Part shown: piece after piece, positions 21,767 through 46,968 of the stretch | How positions within the stretch are numbered: position 1 is the stretch's first letter | Layout of the letters: every line of letters begins with the position of its first letter | IMG/VR virus record: IMGVR_UViG_3300022700_000069 | Location: 38,429 to 102,428 of that record | Strand: one strand, 5' to 3' | DNA length: 64,000 nt | Source of the DNA: a virus | Position numbers and translations under genes: made by a program | Notes under the pieces: model-generated | Told to the model about the DNA's origin: nothing | Database searches by the model: none | The model's input: the letters and a program-made list of their open reading frames with translations, nothing else

Positions 21767-23647
21767 ATGGAAAAAGCAATAAAAAAAATATTAAATAATA
21801 AGAAATATATTGAATCACATATAAAAAAAACATATCCAGAATTATATAATAAAATTATTTTATTTAACAAAAATTTGGATATATCATGGTTAAATAAATT
21901 ATATAATTATATATATAAAATTAAAAGTAAAAATTGTGAATATTGTGGTAAATCATTAAAATTTAAAGAAAATTTTTCTATTGGTTATGGAAAATACTGT
22001 TCAAAAAAATGCACTTCTAGGGCAACAAGAGATAAAGTAAAACAAACTAATTTAAATAAATATGGGGTTGAATTTCCATTACAAAATGAAAAAATATTAA
22101 ATAAAGTAAAACAAACTAATTTAAATAAATATGGGGTTGAATCAACATTATTAAATAAAAACGTAAAAAATAAAATAAAACAAACTAATATAGAAAAATA
22201 CGGTGTTGAAAATCCATTTCAATCAAAATTAATAAGAAATAAAATAAAACAAACTAATTTAAATAAGTATGGGGTTGAAAATATATTTGAAAATGAAGAA
22301 GTGAGAAAAAAAATTAATGTAAAGTATTGGAATAAAACAAATGACGAAAGAAAAAAAATTGTTCAAAAAGCAAAACAAACTAATATAAATAAATATGGTG
22401 TTTCAACAGTTTTATTATTGGAAGAAAATAGAAATAAACAAAAAAAGATTATTAAAAAAAAGTATGGAGTTGAATTTGCATTACAAAATCCTGAAATTTA
22501 TAAAAAGAGTCGAGAAAAAATAAGAAAAAAATATGAAGTAGATAATATATCACAATCTTTAATAATTAAAAAAAATAAAAAAAATAAATTTTTAATTAAT
22601 TGGGCAAAAAAATTAAATATTTCCATAAATAATATAAAATATGATAATGGGATTTTCATTATTAAACAATATTGTAAAAATCATAATAGTTTTAAAATTA
22701 ATTATGATGATTTATATAATAGGTTTAATATGGGGGTTATTAATATTTGTACTAAATGTAATCCCATTAATAAACAATCGAAAATTAAGGAAAGGGAAAT
22801 TGCTGATTTCATTGATAATGATTTAAATTTGAAATATGATAGAAATAATCGAAAAATATTAAATGGAAAAGAAATTGATTTTTATTTTCCTGAATATAAA
22901 TTAGGTATTGAATTTAATGGTTTATATTATCACTCAAATAAATTCATTACAAAAAAATATCATCTGAATAAAACAGAGTTTGCTGAAAAACAAAATATAC
23001 AATTATTACATATTTTTGAAGATGAGTGGATATTTAAAAAAGATTTAATTAAATCAATAATTAAAAGTAAATTAAATATTTTTGATAAAAAAATATATGC
23101 TCGTAAATGTGAAATTAGAGAAATTAATGATAATCAATTGGTTCGTGAATTTCTTGAAAGAAATCATTTACAGGGGTTTGTTGGTTCTAAATATAAAATT
23201 GGATTATTTCATAATGATGAATTAATTTCATTAATGATTTTTAGTAGAAAAAGAATTGCTTTGGGAAGTAAAAATAATAACAATAATGAATTTGAATTAT
23301 TACGTTTTTGTAATAAATTAAATACACAGGTAATTGGTGGAGCAAGTAAATTATTAAATTATTTTGTAAAAATTTATAAACCAAAATCAATTTTAACTTT
23401 TGCTGATAGAAGATATAGTAATGGTAAATTATATCAAAGATTAGGGTTTAAATTCATAAAAAAAACTAAACCAAATTATTGGTATTTTAAGAAAAATAAA
23501 TTGATCAGATATCATAGATTTAATTTTAGGAAAGATATTCTTGTTAAAAAGGGGTATGATTCTAACAAAACCGAAAAACAAATAATGACTGAAAATGGAT
23601 ATTATTACATATATGATTGTGGTAATAAAAAATATGTGTTAAATTAA
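21767..23647 (+). CDS. Hef-like homing endonuclease with KQTNxxKYGVE repeats
   Basis: About 7 KYGV repeats; EIDFYFPEYKLGIEFNGLYYHS, IFEDEW, FADRRYS, IYDCG. Confidence 0.8.
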   Translation: MEKAIKKILNNKKYIESHIKKTYPELYNKIILFNKNLDISWLNKLYNYIYKIKSKNCEYCGKSLKFKENFSIGYGKYCSKKCTSRATRDKVKQTNLNKYGVEFPLQNEKILNKVKQTNLNKYGVESTLLNKNVKNKIKQTNIEKYGVENPFQSKLIRNKIKQTNLNKYGVENIFENEEVRKKINVKYWNKTNDERKKIVQKAKQTNINKYGVSTVLLLEENRNKQKKIIKKKYGVEFALQNPEIYKKSREKIRKKYEVDNISQSLIIKKNKKNKFLINWAKKLNISINNIKYDNGIFIIKQYCKNHNSFKINYDDLYNRFNMGVINICTKCNPINKQSKIKEREIADFIDNDLNLKYDRNNRKILNGKEIDFYFPEYKLGIEFNGLYYHSNKFITKKYHLNKTEFAEKQNIQLLHIFEDEWIFKKDLIKSIIKSKLNIFDKKIYARKCEIREINDNQLVREFLERNHLQGFVGSKYKIGLFHNDELISLMIFSRKRIALGSKNNNNNEFELLRFCNKLNTQVIGGASKLLNYFVKIYKPKSILTFADRRYSNGKLYQRLGFKFIKKTKPNYWYFKKNKLIRYHRFNFRKDILVKKGYDSNKTEKQIMTENGYYYIYDCGNKKYVLN

Positions 23648-42955: not shown

Positions 42956-43003
42956 GTCTCAAGTAAACAAATTAAAAATTTTTATATTTTTTTATAAAAA
43001 AAC

Positions 43004-43034
43004 TTGCATAGAATAAAAAGTTATTATATCTTTG
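43004..43034 (+). promoter_or_regulatory. Bacteroidota sigma70-type promoter of the RNA array
   Basis: TTG-N20-TATCTTTG. Confidence 0.7.
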
Positions 43035-43078: not shown

Positions 43079-43219
43079 GGGGAGGTATGCAAATTAGCAT
43101 ATTTAAAATATGATCGCATTCCTCATCTACTGTGAGAACTGGTGATATTTACAGTAATATTAGGTAAAGCAAATTGTCCGTAAAACAATTGATTGTTGGT
43201 TCAAATCCAACCCTCCCCA
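43079..43219 (+). ncRNA. tRNA-Tyr(GTA)-like RNA with ~68-nt module inserted in the D-loop
   Basis: Acceptor GGGGAGG/CCTCCCC, D stem TGC/GCA, anticodon arm ATTGT-CCGTAAA-ACAAT, T arm GTTGG-TTCAAAT-CCAAC. Module at 43107-43156. Confidence 0.85.
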
Positions 43220-43232
43220 CTAAAAAAAAAAT

Positions 43233-43355
43233 GGAAAACTGTTTGTTAATTCAGTACAATTAGATCAGTTGGATAGATCACAAGCCTCTTAAGTTTGAAG
43301 TCGGTGGTTCAAGTCCACCATTGTAAAAACCATAATTTAACAAACAAATTATTCC
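43233..43355 (+). ncRNA. Module-wrapped tRNA-Lys(CTT)-like RNA
   Basis: Cloverleaf 43255-43325 with 6-bp acceptor TACAAT/ATTGTA, enclosed by GGAA-AACT-GTTTGTTAA...TTAACAAAC-AAATTA-TTCC. Confidence 0.85.
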
Positions 43356-43366
43356 TTAAAATATAT

Positions 43367-43440
43367 TGCGGGATAGAGAAGTCTGGAATCTCGTCTGGCT
43401 CATAACCAGAAGGTCGAGGGTTCAAATCCCTCTCCCGCTA
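43367..43440 (+). tRNA. tRNA-Met(CAT), initiator-like
   Basis: Canonical cloverleaf, TCTGG-CTCATAA-CCAGA, unpaired 1:72 (T/T), no encoded CCA. Confidence 0.92.
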
Positions 43441-43446
43441 CAAAAA

Positions 43447-43520
43447 GAAGAACTGTTAGTTTTTACAGTAAATTTGATGCAACTCAAAATTCTTACAAAC
43501 AAAAACTAACAAATTTCTTC
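43447..43520 (+). ncRNA. Minimal module RNA enclosing a small hairpin
   Basis: GAAG-AACT-GTTAGTTTT-TACAGTA...AAAACTAAC-AAATTT-CTTC. Confidence 0.8.
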
Positions 43521-43556
43521 TAAGTTATTAAAAAGTTCTTTAAAAAAAGATTAAAC

Positions 43557-43701
43557 GGAGGGGTAGATTAGTAATAATTTACATCAAATATTGACAAACT
43601 ACTCCTGTATTGTTGGAGAACCGACAATATTTTCAGTATAAAACGGATAAATCATTTGCATTTTAAGCAAAAGTCTGTGGGTTCGAGTCCCGCCCCCTCC
43701 G
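43557..43701 (+). ncRNA. tRNA-Lys(TTT)-like RNA with ~70-nt module inserted in the D-loop
   Basis: Acceptor GGAGGGG/CCCCTCC, D stem GATT/AATC, TTTGC-ATTTTAA-GCAAA, GTGGG-TTCGAGT-CCCGC. Module at 43587-43638. Confidence 0.85.
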
Positions 43702-43706
43702 CTAAT

Positions 43707-43855
43707 TTTGGGAAAACTAAAAGTATTTACAGTAAAATTGTAGGTTCGAGTCCTACTATTATCTCCATTAATTGATAATATGGTCAAATGGTAAAGACGC
43801 AACTCTTGAAAAGTTGATTATAAATACAATATAATACTTTTAAATTGTTCCCAAA
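43707..43855 (+). ncRNA. Module-wrapped circularly permuted tRNA-Ser(TGA)-like RNA
   Basis: Order is T arm, acceptor 3' strand+TCCA, linker, acceptor 5' strand, D arm, anticodon arm, all enclosed by the module. Confidence 0.85.
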
Positions 43856-44058
43856 TAATTATTTTGGGTGGTTTTTAATGTGGTTGATAAATTCTATAAA
43901 TAAATTGAGTAAACCCACCACTCAACGATTTTGAGGCTATTAATGCTAGAGTTTTTTATTAAAAAATGGGACGCATTATCTAACATTTGATGATTAAAAA
44001 TGGTTTTTTTCCTTTAGGAGTTTTTTCATAAAATTTTATATGGAAGAAGATTTTCATA

Positions 44059-44120
44059 AAAAAAAAATGGTGGGTTATTATTGGATAATTATATTCAATT
44101 TTAATTCATCATTTTTTTTT
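44059..44120 (+). terminator. Long terminator-like hairpin
   Basis: A9-TGGTGGGTTA...TAATTCATCA-T9, with G:U pairs on the + strand. Confidence 0.5.
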
Positions 44121-44146
44121 GTAACATTTATTTTTATAAATCGTAT
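44120..44146 (+). promoter_or_regulatory. ECF-type promoter TGTAAC-N16-CGTA
   Basis: Matches 42924-42950; about 40 nt upstream of ATG 44188. Confidence 0.6.
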
Positions 44147-44187
44147 AATATAACATTGTTTAATTTTAATAAATATAAAATCGTATC

Positions 44188-45804
44188 ATGAAGAACTTAG
44201 TGTTAGCAAATGACAAAGTAATAACAATCAAAAAGAATTTGATTGAAGGTATGACAATTGCTTCAGGTGCAAAATCATCAGCAACTTATTATCATAGTAA
44301 AGAGGAACAAACCCAAGCAATTAAAAATAATGTAAAAAAACTTTATAATCTATCTAAAGAACTTCCATTAATTGTAGCATCACAAAGAGGTGTAACTGGT
44401 AAGTTTATATCTGAGGTACTTTTAAATGAATTTAAAAGTACTCAAAGTGGTGGTGCATGTAATATTGTTAATCCTATTGATTGGTATGATGAAAGGATTG
44501 GTGATAAGGCACTTTTAACTGCATTATATAATTTGAATGAAGTTGGTATTACATATGTACTTCGTCTTTTTGTTGAGATGAAAAATGAAAAGATTAATAA
44601 TGAAAGAGCAAGAAAAATTATTCTTGGATTTTTGCTTGGTCATCCTAATTTTGAATTTTATTCATTGAAATATCGTAATAAAATTAGTGAGATATTGCAA
44701 CATGTGTATGGTATTAAAAAAACATCGGTTTTGCTTTCAATTGCAAAAAAATTCATTCAATCAGGTCTATATGATAATGATAAAGAAGCAAATATTGTTA
44801 ATGAAAATATTTTAAAATATACTTCTTTTGAAGATATTAAAATTTTTAAAATTTTGCTTTTTATCTTCAAAGAAGAGAATGGTATTTCATATCTTAAAAG
44901 GGATTTTCCAGTGCTTTTTGAATTTATGAAAGCTAAAAAAGATATTACAAATGTTACTAAAGTCCCTGAAGAAGTGCTTATTGGATTGATTTCAAATAAG
45001 AATCATCCACAATATGAAGAATTGTGGTCAACAGAATTAAAAAGAAAGACTACAAAAGCTATGTTGAGAAAAAATACTGAGGTAACATCGGTAAATCAAC
45101 AAGTTCGTCAAACAAAATCAACAGCTAAATTAGGTGTTGAAAAAAATGTTGATGTAAAAAAAGCAACTGATTTCTTAGCATTATATAAAACTGGTTATGA
45201 AAATGGATGGACTTCTGAATTGAGTAAAGCAATTGAAGAACTTGCAGAAAAGAAAAAAATTACTAATTTTTACTACAAAAATGTTGGAATTATTCTTGAT
45301 GATAGTAATTCAATGACTGGACATAAACAGCAATCTAAGAATACTCCAAAAGCAGTAGCAAATTTCACAGCAAAAGTTCTTTCAAAATCAGCAGAAAGTA
45401 CTATTGTATCAAAAGTTAACGATGAGGTAACAGATTTAGCATCAGCATTTGTTGACTTAATAAAAAGGAATGAAGATTATGATGCAATTTTTGTTGTTAC
45501 AGATGGATATGAAAATTGTTATGAGGGATTGTTTAATGAGGTATTGACAGCATATTTGTCAGAAACGAATAAAAATATGCCAATATTTCAAATTTCACCA
45601 ATTACTGGTGCTGAAATGGGTGGTAATGTTCGTAATTTGGGTGAAAATGTTGTAACAATGTCAATTAATGATCCTGTTGCAATTCAACCACAAATTAATG
45701 CAAGATTACTTGAAATTGATACCGCTCGTTGGTTGAAAAATCAAGTTCAAGCAATTGAACAAACAAATGTAACAAGAAAAGTAAATAAAAATATTAATGT
45801 ATAA
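44188..45804 (+). CDS. Ro60/TROVE-like protein: helical N-terminal region plus C-terminal vWA domain
   Basis: MIDAS IILDDSNSM, TDLA, AIFVVTDGYEN. 538-aa size and architecture are Ro-like. The vWA call is firm; the TROVE call is inferred. Confidence 0.6.
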   Translation: MKNLVLANDKVITIKKNLIEGMTIASGAKSSATYYHSKEEQTQAIKNNVKKLYNLSKELPLIVASQRGVTGKFISEVLLNEFKSTQSGGACNIVNPIDWYDERIGDKALLTALYNLNEVGITYVLRLFVEMKNEKINNERARKIILGFLLGHPNFEFYSLKYRNKISEILQHVYGIKKTSVLLSIAKKFIQSGLYDNDKEANIVNENILKYTSFEDIKIFKILLFIFKEENGISYLKRDFPVLFEFMKAKKDITNVTKVPEEVLIGLISNKNHPQYEELWSTELKRKTTKAMLRKNTEVTSVNQQVRQTKSTAKLGVEKNVDVKKATDFLALYKTGYENGWTSELSKAIEELAEKKKITNFYYKNVGIILDDSNSMTGHKQQSKNTPKAVANFTAKVLSKSAESTIVSKVNDEVTDLASAFVDLIKRNEDYDAIFVVTDGYENCYEGLFNEVLTAYLSETNKNMPIFQISPITGAEMGGNVRNLGENVVTMSINDPVAIQPQINARLLEIDTARWLKNQVQAIEQTNVTRKVNKNINV

Positions 45805-45815
45805 AACTTGAGACA

Positions 45816-46913
45816 ATGAATACAAGAGAATTTACAGAACTTTTAAAAGGCTGTCGTCCAATTAAGGATGACGAAGGAAACATCATCGTCCAAACAATTT
45901 TGAATATGCAAATTATTGGTCTTACTACTGATAAAGAATATTCTCTTGATGATCGTTTTGAAAATCCATTAACTGCATTAAGAGCATCTAATAGTTCTTA
46001 TGGTGAAGTTAGGTTTAATAATACTACTAATAAGGAAGTTATTGTACCAACTCAAATGGCTGTTATGACAAAACAACGTGCTCAAAATCATGGTATGACT
46101 AAAAGTGGTTATATTGGAAAAAATCAACAAACAACATTTCATGATGCAGGTTGTGTTCAAGGGTCTCAAGGTGGTACATTTAGAGATACTCAAGAATTCA
46201 GAATGCTTCCTGTTACAATGCGTGAAATGGCATTTAATGCAGTAAAGGATGGTCGTGGATATGACCGTATTTATCCTGCTATTCGTAATTTGGGTAAACA
46301 AACTCAATCAAATACTGCTGAATATTTGGATAAATATTTTTCAAAATATGATAAAAAATTAGAACAATTTATTGCACATTTTGAACGTCCAAAAAATTTG
46401 ATTGGTGTTATTGTAATGATCGATAATGAGATTGTTGCAATTGATAAATTTCCATCGTTTACATATGCAGAACAAGTATGGGATATGATGATTCGTGATT
46501 GCTATGGTGCATTGGCTATTATTTCTGAACTTGAGAATAAAACTGCAAACACTGTGTTTACAGATACATTTAAGGATGTTAAGCGTGAACATCAAGGAAA
46601 TGTGGTTGAAATGATTGAAACCGCATTAAAGAAAACTAAGAAATCAATAACTGATTCAGTTCAGGAAAAAATTGAGGAAATTTTAGAACTGGAATTTGAT
46701 GCAGAACGTGATAATGAAGGACATAGTTCAAATATGGGAGCACCTACATCATATATTCTAAAAAATGAGGGGTATACTGGACAAGTAATTACTGAAAGTG
46801 AGTATAATCACATGGTCAGTATTGTTAAAAAAGAATCTTTTGATGCAAATGCTCTTAGGAAGGTTAATGAATTACGTAGAAAGGCGAGATCACAAAATAG
46901 ATTTTCGTTATAG
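45816..46913 (+). CDS. ARPP-like (DUF6569-related) protein
   Basis: YGEVRF.N, AQNH, GCVQGSQ, GVIVMIDNEIVAID.F; 11 nt after the vWA gene. Confidence 0.55.
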   Translation: MNTREFTELLKGCRPIKDDEGNIIVQTILNMQIIGLTTDKEYSLDDRFENPLTALRASNSSYGEVRFNNTTNKEVIVPTQMAVMTKQRAQNHGMTKSGYIGKNQQTTFHDAGCVQGSQGGTFRDTQEFRMLPVTMREMAFNAVKDGRGYDRIYPAIRNLGKQTQSNTAEYLDKYFSKYDKKLEQFIAHFERPKNLIGVIVMIDNEIVAIDKFPSFTYAEQVWDMMIRDCYGALAIISELENKTANTVFTDTFKDVKREHQGNVVEMIETALKKTKKSITDSVQEKIEEILELEFDAERDNEGHSSNMGAPTSYILKNEGYTGQVITESEYNHMVSIVKKESFDANALRKVNELRRKARSQNRFSL

Positions 46914-46934: not shown

Positions 46935-46968
46935 AAACCCCATAAGAATTTCTTATGGGGTTTTTTTT
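46935..46968 (+). terminator. Intrinsic terminator closing the Ro-like operon
   Basis: AAACCCCATAAGA-ATT-TCTTATGGGG-T8. Confidence 0.9.

What the first reader, a model, noticed from the sequence alone, without database searches (positions are those of the whole stretch)
43079..46913. Candidate new system: array of tRNA-module chimeric RNAs coupled to a Ro60/TROVE-like vWA protein and an ARPP-like protein
Seen: five RNAs carry one module, written as [4-bp stem]-AACY-[9-bp stem]-TWCAGTA ... [stem']-6 nt-[stem']. The copies are TGAG AACT GGTGATATT TACAGTA / AATATGATC GCATTC CTCA; GGAA AACT GTTTGTTAA TTCAGTA / TTAACAAAC AAATTA TTCC; GAAG AACT GTTAGTTTT TACAGTA / AAAACTAAC AAATTT CTTC; GGAG AACC GACAATATT TTCAGTA / AATATTGAC AAACTA CTCC; and GGAA AACT AAAAGTATT TACAGTA / AATACTTTT AAATTG TTCC. 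Stem sequences differ widely yet pair (at most one mismatch), while loops and lengths are fixed, so structure is under selection. Four copies are fused to tRNA bodies. The next operon encodes a 538-aa helical+vWA protein and an ARPP-like partner. Known: Ro60/Rsr binds Y RNAs, which consist of a protein-binding stem plus an effector domain that is tRNA-like in YrlA and are encoded beside the Ro gene. Inference: the module is the docking handle for the Ro-like protein and displays interchangeable tRNA cargos, for example as decoys, repair substrates or tethers. It lacks the bulged-C helix of classic Y RNAs, so it would be a new family.
Basis: partly seen in the sequence, partly recalled or inferred. 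Interest (0 to 1): 0.96.

Follow-up and report, generated by a model that had tools for sequence, protein, structure and literature searches.

The report
Diverged Ro60 particle with tRNA-mimic RNAs
A giant uncultured phage encodes five small RNAs that graft tRNA look-alikes onto one shared stem "handle", next to a very diverged structural cousin of the RNA-surveillance ring protein Ro60 and its constant partner ARPP-1; the same trio sits beside tRNA gene arrays in distant bacteria, and I found no paper or RNA library entry describing it.

Summary
Five copies of one RNA module lie at 43079-43851 and nowhere else in the 102-kb record. The module is a 4-bp helix, an ACU bulge facing 6 nt, a 9-bp helix, then UNCAG. 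Four copies carry tRNA bodies in three topologies.

- **Ro-like protein:** the 538-aa ORF has no Pfam hit. A confident model (pLDDT 93) matches every solved Ro60 over ring plus vWA (Z 18.1).
- **Partner:** the next ORF is ARPP-1 and is predicted to dock on the vWA MIDAS face (ipSAE 0.66; controls 0.00).
- **Conservation:** the same module geometry, with covariation, recurs upstream of homologous gene pairs at 25-34% protein identity. These are in Planctomycetota, Myxococcota and Bacteroidota, mostly inside same-strand tRNA arrays.
- **Specificity:** nearly all genome-wide hits fall at these loci.
- **Rfam:** nothing but tRNA matches. YrlA scores 14.9 bits against a cut-off of 69.

Most likely this is an undescribed branch of the Ro60/Y-RNA (YrlA-type) particles, with the module as the protein handle. 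Binding is inferred, not shown.

Other agents of this scan reported the same system on other DNA (37 notes, at least 21 genomes). My tests were made independently and agree with theirs.

The parts
43003..43034 (+). Candidate promoter for the RNA array (TTG ... TAtcTTTG, Bacteroidota-type -33/-7 look-alike)
   Evidence: Read from the sequence. This is inference only. The sigma-70 scan is not above shuffles.
43079..43219 (+). E1: tRNA-Tyr(GUA)-like body with a 7-bp acceptor, a T arm and anticodon loop CCGUAAA (C33). The module (43107-43156), permuted and capped by a 7-nt loop, is inserted in the D loop 5' of G18G19.
   Evidence: Sequence. Partial tRNA hit of 25.7 bits. Module parse. Orthologues in relatives.
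43233..43355 (+). E2: the module encloses a complete tRNA-Lys(CUU) cloverleaf (43254-43327). Its acceptor end is sealed into the 9-bp helix, and there is no CCA at the canonical place.
   Evidence: ARAGORN and Rfam tRNA, 55.1 bits. Model R1 scores 45.8 bits, E 2.7e-10, and E2 was not in its training set. The same class occurs in Pirellulaceae.
43367..43441 (+). Plain tRNA-Met(CAU) without a module, inside the array
   Evidence: 62.7 bits.
43447..43520 (+). E3: minimal module RNA (74 nt). The cargo is a short GUAA/UUAC-closed hairpin, which in relatives looks like an anticodon stem-loop.
   Evidence: 65.6 bits; a training member.
43557..43701 (+). E4: tRNA-Lys(UUU)-like body with the permuted, capped module (43587-43638) in the D loop
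   Evidence: Sequence. Partial tRNA hit of 25.0 bits..
43711..43851 (+). E5: the module encloses a circularly permuted tRNA. Order: T arm, acceptor 3' strand, U-CCA, 6-nt linker, acceptor 5' strand, D arm, anticodon arm (UGA). The module stands where the variable arm would be. This is a YrlA-like topology.
   Evidence: Sequence. tRNA half hit of 28.1 bits. R1 scores 33.1 bits, E 1e-6, not in training. In orthologues the acceptor hairpin covaries and most keep NCCA.
43855..44187 (+). Spacer between the array and the Ro-like gene. It holds a terminator-like hairpin at 43850-43868. Relatives have a sixth module RNA here, which this window lacks.
   Evidence: fold z = -3.6.
44188..45804 (+). Ro60-fold protein (538 aa): HEAT-repeat ring plus a C-terminal vWA domain with an intact MIDAS motif (D371, S373, S375, D439)
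   Evidence: No Pfam or PHROG hit. AF2 pLDDT 93, pTM 0.90. Foldseek's top 12 hits are all Ro60. VIA-align Z 18.1, rmsd 4.6 A, 408 residues aligned to 1yvr. Conserved columns.
45816..46913 (+). ARPP-1 protein (365 aa), starting 11 nt after the Ro-like stop codon. It is predicted to dock on the vWA MIDAS face.
   Evidence: PF20208, 56.4 bits against a cut-off of 27. Invariant Q26, Q90, H92, C113, E190. Complex ipSAE 0.66 against 0.00 for controls.
46935..46963 (+). Intrinsic terminator (13-bp stem followed by a T run) closing the two-gene operon

Best explanation
This is a ribonucleoprotein system of the Ro60/Y-RNA type, built from very diverged parts.

**The handle.** The five RNAs are Y-RNA analogues. 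Their shared module is the docking handle for the Ro60-fold ring protein. The module is a purine-rich 4-bp outer helix, an ACU bulge opposite a 6-nt strand with a fixed U, a 9-bp helix with fixed G-C and U-A pairs, then single-stranded UNCAG. It most likely binds the outer alpha8-alpha10 face of the ring, as Y-RNA stems bind Ro60.

**The display.** The handle presents a tRNA-shaped domain through A-rich linkers. The domain can be a whole cloverleaf, a cloverleaf tethered through its D loop, a permuted tRNA, or just an anticodon-like hairpin.

**The effector.** ARPP-1, an uncharacterised enzyme-like protein with invariant Cys, His and Gln, docks on the MIDAS face of the ring's vWA domain. It takes the place that PNPase or RtcB holds in known Ro60 systems.

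**E5.** It is probably opened by RNase P at its 7-bp acceptor hairpin and ends in its encoded CCA, as shown for M. smegmatis YrlA.

**Likely role.** The tRNA mimics engage a factor that recognises tRNA, in a conflict over the tRNA pool. That could be bait or decoy for anticodon nucleases, or surveillance and repair of damaged tRNA.

**What is shown and what is inferred.**
- Shown: the RNA structure and its covariation, the Ro60 fold, ARPP-1 family membership, and the conserved three-part linkage.
- Predicted: the Ro-like/ARPP-1 contact.
- Inferred: RNA-protein binding, RNA processing, and the biological role.
For: **Module is real and local.** There are five exact copies, only in the array. 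There are 164 distinct instances upstream of the gene in 79 related phage loci.

**Helices covary.** On 35 phage and bacterial sequences, 89.4% of cells pair against 66.4% when shuffled. Double-change cells number 109 against 33, with 0 of 500 shuffles as high. Slid controls give 35-61%.

**Geometry is conserved across phyla.** The 4/4/9/UNCAG // 9/6/4 layout and its invariant letters are shared by the phage and by bacteria whose proteins are only 25-34% identical.

**Hits are specific to the locus.**
- The 5'-half pattern gives 14 hits in five genomes of 6.7-10.8 Mb. Ten are at the Ro-like locus; the reversed control gives 0.
- All 18 hits in five complete 327-365 kb phage genomes lie in the array.
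- All five covariance-model hits at E <= 0.001, in four of five whole genomes searched, lie beside the gene.
- In 151 sampled Planctomycetota genomes the protein is in 4. The model hits 2 of those 4 and 0 of the other 147 (Fisher p 5e-4). A third positive genome has a weaker copy about 400 nt upstream.

**Protein.** The fold matches Ro60 at full length. All solved Ro60 entries rank first, and vWA-only hits follow at Z <= 11.6. Near-invariant polar and basic residues (N137, N138, R140, Y162, K165, H172) lie in alpha8-alpha10 of the model. That is the ring region holding the Y-RNA-binding residues of phage phiLo Ro60 (PMC12135203).

**ARPP-1.** It lies directly downstream in 54 of the 62 genome-collection loci (53 of the 61 bacterial or archaeal ones); most of the rest have contigs that end just after the Ro-like gene. 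The predicted interface uses the MIDAS residues and the invariant DGYEN motif, against ARPP's invariant F189-E190.

**Parallels with YrlA (PMC4201824).** YrlA RNAs are encoded within 4 kb upstream on the same strand, come several per locus, can be polycistronic with tRNAs, and contain a permuted tRNA-like domain. M. smegmatis YrlA is cut by RNase P and carries CCA.

**Anticodon loops vary.** Among 11 near-identical Pirellulaceae copies, 5 of 7 anticodon-loop columns vary against 10 of 89 other columns (p 9e-4). Phage orthologues also carry many different anticodons.
Against: - No binding or expression data exist.
- Sequence methods do not link the protein to TROVE. Pfam TROVE hits 0 of 86 family members. 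hhalign against a canonical Ro60 aligns only the vWA part, at 10% probability.
- The handle lacks the CGAA / GNCGAAN0-1G motif that canonical Ro60 proteins read.
- Some genomes encode a canonical Ro60 as well, so this family is a paralogue whose RNA partner need not follow the Ro60 rule.
- Linkage cannot tell whether the handle is read by the ring, by ARPP-1 or by a host factor, because the two genes never separate.
- E1 and E4 keep perfect 7-bp acceptor stems, so they could still be working tRNAs.
- Anticodon variability could reflect relaxed constraint rather than an arms race.
Confidence: 0.65

Rival explanations
1. The module is a processing or splicing signal, like the archaeal bulge-helix-bulge that serves intron-containing, permuted and leader-trailer-paired tRNAs alike. 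It would be cut out and the ends ligated, releasing working tRNAs. The Ro-like/ARPP-1 pair would be the processing machine, or merely a neighbour.
For: The three topologies (insert inside a tRNA, permuted tRNA flanked by the two halves, whole tRNA flanked by the halves) mirror those handled by one endonuclease in archaea and red algae (my own knowledge; sequence). E1 and E4 keep 7-bp acceptors, G18G19 and T loops. E5 keeps an encoded CCA. ARPP-1 has enzyme-like invariant residues.
Against: - The internal loop is 4 nt facing 6 nt. It is not two 3-nt bulges staggered around a 4-bp helix.
- Variable A-rich linkers of 5-16 nt separate the module from the tRNA body, so no fixed cut would restore a normal D loop.
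- The Pirellulaceae wrapped tRNA has only a 3-bp acceptor, and E2 has no CCA in place, so excision would not give a chargeable tRNA.
- Minimal forms carry no tRNA at all.
- Only 1 of 5 complete phage genomes encodes RtcB.
- Cargo anticodons are not conserved between orthologues.
Confidence: 0.12
2. The handle is real but is read by ARPP-1 or by a host protein, not by the Ro-like ring. The ring would instead thread the single-stranded ends of damaged RNAs, as Ro60 does with misfolded RNAs.
For: The two genes are always together, so linkage cannot separate them. The handle lacks the canonical Ro60 recognition motif. ARPP occurs in other nucleic-acid or sugar-linked contexts (PMC9503650).
Against: ARPP-1 in its other published contexts is not reported with such RNAs. 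In every known Ro60 system the adjacent same-strand structured RNAs bind the ring (PMC4201824, PMC12135203). The family's conserved polar and basic residues lie in the ring region that binds Y RNA in phiLo Ro60.
Confidence: 0.1
3. The module is only a structural or transcript-punctuation element of tRNA operons, for example an RNase III/E site or a stabiliser. Its nearness to the gene pair would be inherited synteny without a specific RNA-protein complex.
For: It always lies within tRNA-rich transcription units. Within the phage clade alone, co-occurrence could be plain synteny.
Against: - The linkage survives divergence down to 25-34% protein identity across phyla and between phages and cells.
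- Single-stranded letters (ACU, UNCAG, a U in the 6-nt strand) stay invariant while the helices covary, which is the signature of a specific reader.
- Most tRNAs of the bacterial arrays have no module. Only the 1-5 RNAs next to the gene do.
Confidence: 0.08

Closest known systems
Bacterial and mycobacteriophage Ro60 (Rsr) with YrlA/YrlB or Yrn1 Y RNAs (Chen et al. 2014, PMC4201824; Rfam RF02553)
   Same: - A ring-plus-vWA protein.
- Several structured RNAs within 4 kb upstream on the same strand, sometimes polycistronic with tRNAs.
- A terminal stem with an internal loop as the protein handle.
- A tRNA-like effector domain that is circularly permuted (T arm before D arm).
- A 7-bp acceptor hairpin with RNase P cleavage and a CCA end in M. 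smegmatis, which E5 matches in design.
   Different: - The protein is not detectable by the TROVE HMM or by profile comparison.
- The handle has ACU/UNCAG instead of GNCGAAN0-1G.
- The YrlA model scores 14.9 bits against a cut-off of 69.
- Cargos include whole cloverleaves with anticodon arms, D-loop-tethered tRNAs and bare hairpins.
- The constant protein partner is ARPP-1 rather than PNPase or RtcB.
- The unit is embedded in tRNA arrays.
- Canonical Ro60 coexists in some of the same genomes.
Thermus phage phiLo Ro60 with Yrl1 and Yrl2 (PMC12135203; PDB 9KOP, 9L5Y)
   Same: A phage-encoded Ro60-fold protein with Y-like RNAs just upstream (Z 14.9 to my model). Its RNA binding uses basic residues of alpha8-alpha10.
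   Different: phiLo's RNAs are simple stem-bulge-stem RNAs with a CGAA motif and no tRNA grafts. Its partner is host PNPase. No ARPP-1 is involved.
[quoted passage not shown] 2021, PMC8421152; Tran et al. 2016, PMC4758250)
   Same: The bacterial homologues of this unit sit inside dense same-strand arrays of up to 37 tRNA genes in 9 kb. L-arrays are horizontally transferred, stress-induced, and neighbour RNA-processing genes such as rtcB.
   Different: The passages I read in these papers name HNH endonuclease, rtcB and dpsA as neighbours, and do not mention a Ro-like/ARPP-1 pair or handle-bearing tRNA mimics. The phage window itself has only two plain tRNAs.
Intron-containing, permuted and split tRNA genes processed through the bulge-helix-bulge motif (archaea, Cyanidioschyzon merolae; my own knowledge)
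   Same: One RNA motif occurs as an insert within a tRNA, and as paired flanks of a permuted or whole tRNA.
   Different: The motif here is not a 3-4-3 bulge-helix-bulge. The linkers are variable. Several cargos cannot become chargeable tRNAs. No splicing endonuclease was looked for or seen.

Membership tests
Ro60 / TROVE protein family (Pfam PF05731) | Match to the TROVE profile HMM above its cut-off | tested here: not met
   No Pfam hit for the window protein at E <= 1. 0 of 86 family members hit TROVE at E <= 0.01. A family profile against PDB sequences finds no Ro60. The TROVE HMM finds other genes, not this one, in carrier genomes.
Ro60 / TROVE protein family (Pfam PF05731) | Profile-profile similarity to a canonical Ro60 over the HEAT ring | tested here: not met
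   hhalign of A2 against a canonical Pirellulaceae Ro60 aligns only the vWA part (132 columns), with probability 10%.
Ro60 / TROVE protein family (Pfam PF05731) | One chain of about 530 aa folding into a HEAT-repeat ring closed by a C-terminal vWA domain | tested here: met
   AF2 pLDDT 93, pTM 0.90. All solved Ro60 entries rank first in Foldseek (E 2e-7). VIA-align gives Z 18.1, rmsd 4.6 A, 408 aligned residues spanning 16-510. phiLo Ro60 gives Z 14.9, rmsd 5.5 A, 397 aligned; Rsr gives Z 12.2, rmsd 5.3 A, 402 aligned. The best non-Ro hit covers the vWA only, at Z 11.6, rmsd 3.9 A, 167 aligned.
Ro60 / TROVE protein family (Pfam PF05731) | MIDAS motif in the vWA domain | tested here: met
   D371 is invariant, S373 and S375 nearly so (DxSxS), and D439-G440 are invariant across 86 diverse members.
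Ro60 / TROVE protein family (Pfam PF05731) | Binds Y RNA on the outer ring surface and RNA ends in the central hole | not testable with these tools
   Indirect only: the conserved residues N137, N138, R140, Y162, K165 and H172 lie in alpha8-alpha10, the region that binds RNA in phiLo Ro60. No residue-level superposition was made.
Y RNA / YrlA (Rfam RF02553, RF00019) | Covariance-model score at or above the gathering cut-off | tested here: not met
   The best YrlA match is 14.9 bits against a cut-off of 69 (E 8.7), and it spans parts of two different RNAs. There are no non-tRNA hits at gathering score in the window or in 16 bacterial loci, and none at E <= 1 in L106.
Y RNA / YrlA (Rfam RF02553, RF00019) | Conserved Ro-binding motif GNCGAAN0-1G / CGAA in the 5' strand of the terminal stem | tested here: not met
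   The 5' strand reads RRRR-(A)ACU-N4-GU...UNCAG in both phage and bacterial copies. No CGAA is present.
Y RNA / YrlA (Rfam RF02553, RF00019) | Encoded within about 4 kb of the Ro gene on the same strand, often in several copies | tested here: met
   In the window the array lies 337-1109 nt upstream of the gene. The same holds in the 79 phage loci and in the bacterial loci. Genome-wide hits are confined to these loci.
Y RNA / YrlA (Rfam RF02553, RF00019) | Terminal stem interrupted by an internal loop, supported by covariation | tested here: met
   13 pairs. 89.4% of cells pair against 66.4% when shuffled. 11 pairs have double changes. 0 of 500 shuffles reach the observed covariation score.
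Y RNA / YrlA (Rfam RF02553, RF00019) | Permuted tRNA-like domain (T arm, acceptor hairpin, D arm) | tested here: met
   E5 and its orthologues show it. The acceptor hairpin covaries and most copies keep NCCA. The other four RNAs use other topologies.
ARPP-1 (Pfam PF20208) | HMM match above the cut-off and the family's conserved Cys and Gln | tested here: met
   56.4 bits against a cut-off of 27, E 3.8e-15. C113, Q26, Q90 and H92 are invariant in 39 sequences. The nearest ESM Atlas clusters are all ARPP-1.
Functional tRNA (Rfam RF00005), for the four chimeras | Full-length model match above 29 bits, a free acceptor end, and U33 in a 7-nt anticodon loop | tested here: inconclusive
   E2 scores 55.1 bits but its acceptor end is sealed and there is no CCA in place. 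E1, E4 and E5 score 25.7, 25.0 and 28.1 bits. E1 has C33. U33 is present in 73-76% of phage chimeras against 89% of array tRNAs, measured with my own hairpin finder.
Bulge-helix-bulge tRNA intron / permuted tRNA processing motif | Two 3-nt bulges on opposite strands separated by a 4-bp helix at the exon-intron borders | tested here: not met
   The 4-nt and 6-nt strands face each other on one side of the 4-bp helix. Variable A-rich linkers lie between the module and the tRNA body.

The most novel reading that the evidence does not exclude
The particle is a programmable bait. The handle fixes a tRNA look-alike, with a fast-evolving anticodon loop, onto a Ro-like ring that carries the ARPP-1 enzyme. 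An enemy anticodon nuclease or tRNA-modifying toxin would then be captured, or its cut sensed or chemically reversed, on the particle. Phages would use this against host tRNA-cleaving defences. Bacteria would use it together with back-up tRNA arrays against phage or toxin attack. That would be a new kind of RNA-guided, tRNA-shaped decoy or sensor immunity, and a first function for ARPP-1.
Probability: 0.25. Interest if true: 0.9.

Novelty: new variant of a known kind. Interest (0 to 1): 0.8.

Why it matters
**What it adds to Ro60 biology.**
- Ro60/Y-RNA particles are conserved from bacteria to humans, yet what their RNA modules recruit is still poorly understood.
- This branch is invisible to sequence libraries: it has no TROVE hit and no Rfam hit.
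- It has a sharply defined RNA handle, a fixed protein effector predicted to sit on the MIDAS site (whose ligand is unknown in canonical Ro60), and natural swaps of tRNA cargos.
- Together these make the logic of a Y-RNA-type particle directly testable.

**Links to other open questions.**
- It ties Ro-type particles to supernumerary tRNA arrays and to phage-host conflicts over tRNA.
- It gives the uncharacterised ARPP-1 family a concrete molecular context.
- Cultured carriers exist (Stieleria, Novipirellula, Thalassoglobus, Minicystis), so experiments are feasible.

Tried and rejected
- **Pseudoknot.** I tested whether the loop capping the outer helix pairs with CAGUA. This looked possible in E1 and E4. 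It is rejected: in 39 orthologues the caps vary freely and include GNRA tetraloops.
- **First AF2 model.** Built from 20 close homologues, it was poor (pLDDT 67, pTM 0.39). I replaced it with a model from 86 diverse sequences.
- **Sequence routes to Ro60.** Pfam, PHROGs, phmmer and a family profile against PDB sequences, and hhalign all gave nothing beyond weak vWA signals.
- **Near-identity search in GenBank phages.** It found only a tRNA-Met match.
- **Apparent Ro-like/ARPP fusions.** Long ORFs in three Myxococcota loci turned out to be spurious open frames in GC-rich DNA. The two genes are in different frames.
- **Phage-encoded RtcB.** It is present in only 1 of 5 complete relatives, so it is not part of the core.
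- **Permuted copies.** A linear covariance model cannot match them (E1, E4). They were found by pattern and pairing scripts instead.
- **Partner-finding control.** In AT-rich phage DNA the false-partner rate was high. Shuffled stems found a partner 18.7% of the time, against 78% for real 5' halves. For that reason the argument rests on covariation and cross-phylum conservation.
- **G082.** This genome has a Ro-like gene matched in two pieces, and I found no module within 3 kb.

Full report
**What the window is.** The window is part of a 102-kb IMG/VR virus record estimated to be 34% complete. It encodes tail fibre, virion, DnaB-like helicase and homing-endonuclease proteins. Homologues of the 538-aa protein lie on phage contigs of 327-365 kb rated 100% complete. 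This is therefore a jumbo phage. Its DNA is AT-rich.

**The observation.** The motif AACY-N9-TWCAGTA occurs exactly five times, all on the + strand between 43137 and 43734. There is no other exact hit in the whole record. Each copy has a partner strand with fixed geometry: 9 nt pairing with the N9, then 6 nt, then 4 nt pairing with the 4 nt before AACY. Three copies pair perfectly and two have one mismatch.

From the sequence, ARAGORN, Rfam and folding I read the five RNAs as follows.
- **E1 (43079-43219) and E4 (43557-43701)** are tRNA-Tyr(GUA)-like and tRNA-Lys(UUU)-like bodies. Each has a perfect 7-bp acceptor stem and a T arm. The module sits in the D loop just before G18G19. There it is circularly permuted, and a loop caps its outer helix.
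- **E2 (43233-43355)** wraps a complete tRNA-Lys(CUU) cloverleaf. Its acceptor end runs into the 9-bp helix.
- **E3 (43447-43520)** is a 74-nt minimal form.
- **E5 (43711-43851)** wraps a circularly permuted tRNA. The order is T arm, acceptor 3' strand, UCCA, a 6-nt linker, acceptor 5' strand, D arm, anticodon arm. The module stands where the variable arm would be.
- A plain tRNA-Met lies between E2 and E3.

**The proteins.** ORF 44188-45804 has no Pfam or PHROG hit.
- A first AF2 model from close homologues was poor.
- A search of 1.84 billion representatives gave 314 relatives down to about 25% identity.
- With 86 of these the model reached pLDDT 93 and pTM 0.90.
- Foldseek then ranks every solved Ro60 first, 12 entries, E down to 2e-7.
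- VIA-align gives Z 18.1, rmsd 4.6 A and 408 aligned residues to Xenopus Ro60, spanning residues 16-510, which covers ring and vWA. Thermus phage phiLo Ro60 gives Z 14.9 (rmsd 5.5 A, 397 aligned) and D. radiodurans Rsr gives Z 12.2 (rmsd 5.3 A, 402 aligned). The next hits cover only the vWA domain, best Z 11.6 (rmsd 3.9 A, 167 aligned).
- The MIDAS residues are conserved across the family.
- Sequence methods do not see the relationship. TROVE hits 0 of 86 members, and hhalign to a canonical Ro60 aligns only the vWA part at 10% probability.

ORF 45816-46913 is ARPP-1 (56.4 bits against a cut-off of 27). Q26, Q90, H92, C113 and E190 are invariant. Iyer, Burroughs and Aravind described ARPP as a probable enzyme acting on ribose-containing molecules. 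They list its contexts, and none of them is this one (PMC9503650).

A complex prediction with both family alignments gave ipSAE 0.66 (three runs: 0.65-0.67) against 0.00 for the best of three controls. The runs share at least 85% of their contacts, and the partner's pLDDT is at least 84. That mark was reached by 58 of 80 solved complexes and 2 of 110 mismatched pairs. These counts hold only roughly here, because my own alignments were used. The interface joins the MIDAS serines 373-375 and the invariant DGYEN stretch 439-448 to ARPP residues 24-29, 187-193 (including the invariant F189-E190) and 244-278. This supports binding but does not show it.

**The module within the phage clade.** In 79 related viral loci the 5' half-motif lies on the + strand within 4 kb upstream of the gene in nearly all. 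There are 164 distinct paired instances, falling into about six orthologous classes. The window lacks the class that relatives carry just upstream of the gene. In five complete phage genomes all 18 matches to the 5'-half pattern are in the array, and none is elsewhere.

**The module beyond phages.** This is the key result.
- A scan of one genome per prokaryote species found 62 loci. Apart from one mis-binned phage contig, protein identity is 25-46% over the best-aligned segment, and 25-34% where most of the protein aligns. They are mostly Planctomycetota (Pirellulaceae), Myxococcota and Bacteroidota.
- ARPP-1 follows directly in 54 of the 62 (53 of the 61 non-phage loci). Most of the others have contigs that end just after the Ro-like gene.
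- These loci are packed with tRNA genes, up to 37 in 9 kb. Every one is on the strand of the two genes and none is on the other strand.
- Immediately upstream of the Ro-like gene lie 1-5 RNAs with the same architecture as the phage module. They read RRRR, ACUN, a 9-nt strand with GUCAW, UNCAG, cargo, the complementary 9 nt, a 6-nt AMMYUN strand, and YYYY.
- The following are shared from phage to Planctomycetota while the helices change: the ACU bulge, the G-C and U-A pairs at positions 5 and 6 of the inner helix, UNCAG, and a U at position 5 of the 6-nt strand.
- On an alignment of 35 minimal forms from both groups, 89.4% of cells pair against 66.4% in shuffles. There are 109 double-change cells against 33, and 0 of 500 shuffles reach this. 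Slid controls give 35-61%.

**Specificity across whole genomes.**
- A 5'-half pattern gave 14 hits in five genomes of 6.7-10.8 Mb. Ten are at the Ro-like locus, and the reversed control gave none.
- A covariance model built from the minimal forms (R1) finds E2 (45.8 bits) and E5 (33.1 bits), which were not in its training set. It finds nothing else significant in the 64-kb window.
- In five whole genomes its five hits at E <= 0.001 fall in four genomes (6.6-10.8 Mb), all beside the gene; three of the five were among its training sequences, and the 16-Mb Minicystis genome gave none.
- In 151 sampled Planctomycetota genomes the protein is present in 4. R1 hits 2 of those 4 and none of the other 147 (Fisher p 5e-4).
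- A third positive genome has a weaker copy (20.7 bits) about 400 nt upstream. In the fourth the gene is matched in two pieces and I found no module.

Rfam offers nothing but tRNA. YrlA scores 14.9 bits against a cut-off of 69.

**The cargos.** They are always tRNA-derived.
- Wrapped forms: in Pirellulaceae the acceptor is only 3 bp.
- Bacterial minimal forms carry an anticodon-like arm plus a T-like arm.
- Phage minimal forms carry an anticodon-like hairpin.
- E5-class orthologues keep a covarying 7-bp acceptor hairpin, and most keep NCCA before a variable linker.

The last point parallels M. smegmatis YrlA. That RNA is cleaved by RNase P, carries CCA, and stays bound to Rsr as two halves (PMC4201824).

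Between orthologues the anticodon loop is the most changeable part.
- In 11 near-identical Pirellulaceae copies, 5 of 7 loop columns vary against 10 of 89 others (p 9e-4). The anticodons seen are CUU, UAG, UUU and AUG.
- Phage orthologues of E1, E4 and E5 also show many anticodons, and U33 is less frequent than in ordinary array tRNAs.
- The loops that cap the outer helix in the permuted forms are free to vary and include GNRA tetraloops. A pseudoknot with CAGUA is therefore rejected.
- Variable A-rich linkers join the module to the tRNA body. That looks like tethers rather than splice sites.

**Interpretation.** The closest known systems are these.
- Ro60 with YrlA-type Y RNAs. These RNAs are structured, lie within 4 kb upstream on the same strand, come several per locus, can be polycistronic with tRNAs, and have a terminal stem as the Ro handle plus a permuted tRNA-like effector domain (PMC4201824).
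- Phage phiLo Ro60 with Yrl1 and Yrl2 (PMC12135203).

The present unit has the same logic with different parts: a ring that only fold comparison recognises, a different handle motif, tRNA grafts in several topologies, and ARPP-1 as the fixed partner.

I therefore think the module is the docking handle of the Ro-like ring. The family's near-invariant N137, N138, R140, Y162, K165 and H172 lie in alpha8-alpha10, the region that binds RNA in phiLo Ro60. This point is suggestive only, because I made no residue-level superposition.

I think ARPP-1 rides on the MIDAS face, and the tRNA-shaped domain engages a factor that recognises tRNA. The setting inside supernumerary tRNA arrays, the fast-changing anticodon loops, and the Tyr and Lys identities of the window's cargos point to conflicts over the tRNA pool. 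The role could be bait or decoy, or surveillance and repair.

RNA binding, processing and role are inferences. I put 0.65 on the Ro/Y-type particle with the module as its handle, and less on any specific role.

The main rival is a splicing-type processing signal. Against it stand the loop geometry, the linkers, the cargos that could never be charged, the cargo-less forms, and the lack of a conserved ligase.

**Novelty.** Searches of the held literature found papers on YrlA, phiLo Ro60, jumbo-phage TROVE proteins, ARPP and tRNA L-arrays. I found none describing this protein family, its handle, or its link to ARPP-1 and tRNA arrays. This is absence within the library searched, not proof.

Other agents of this scan have reported the same system on other DNA (37 notes in at least 21 genomes). 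I read those notes after my own tests. They agree with my results but are not independent evidence.

I rate this a new variant of a known kind. This window is a particularly rich example, because it shows all three graft topologies side by side.

Noticed in passing
L156:1378-3075 and L104:619-945 (Minicystis rosea chromosome): A canonical TROVE/Ro60 gene (E 1.6e-35) lies at the head of the same tRNA array that holds the Ro-like/ARPP-1 pair about 4 kb downstream. After one plain tRNA it is followed by two tRNAs, each carrying a roughly 50-nt hairpin inside the anticodon loop (CCNUCUUC ... GAGGAWGG UUAUCG). These may be Y-like partners of the canonical Ro60.
   Followed up: partly
window 43855-44187: Relatives carry a sixth module RNA (class GAAG AACU UGUUGUGAA UACAGUA) about 250 nt upstream of the Ro-like gene. 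This window lacks it. It has instead a structured spacer (fold z = -3.6) with a terminator-like hairpin at 43850-43868.
   Followed up: partly
L093 (JBAZIW010000001.1, 362,763 bp): A contig deposited as a Candidatus Paceibacterota MAG has the same length and the same matched range as the IMG/VR jumbo-phage record behind L065. It is probably a phage genome binned as a bacterium.
   Followed up: no
window 43367-43441: The plain tRNA-Met(CAU) in the array has a U1.U72 mismatch at the top of its acceptor stem. It is 90% identical to a tRNA-Met of Caulobacter phage CcrSC.
   Followed up: no
window 21767-23647: A 626-aa HNH/homing-endonuclease-like protein (phrog_3339, E 3e-138). Homing endonucleases are reported next to tRNA arrays elsewhere (PMC8421152).
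   Followed up: no
G008:C1:348880-349941 (complete 357-kb relative, record of L021): Only one of five complete related phage genomes encodes RtcB (409-aa frame), and it lies far from the Ro-like locus.
   Followed up: no
G082:C1:63068-64453: In one Planctomycetota genome the Ro-like gene is matched in two pieces, and no module was found within 3 kb upstream. This may be a decaying copy.
   Followed up: partly
L106:3160-3700 (Thalassoglobus neptunius): A cultured planctomycete carries four to five module RNAs in tandem, with wrapped tRNA forms and minimal forms alternating, directly upstream of the gene pair. It would be a convenient experimental model.
   Followed up: partly
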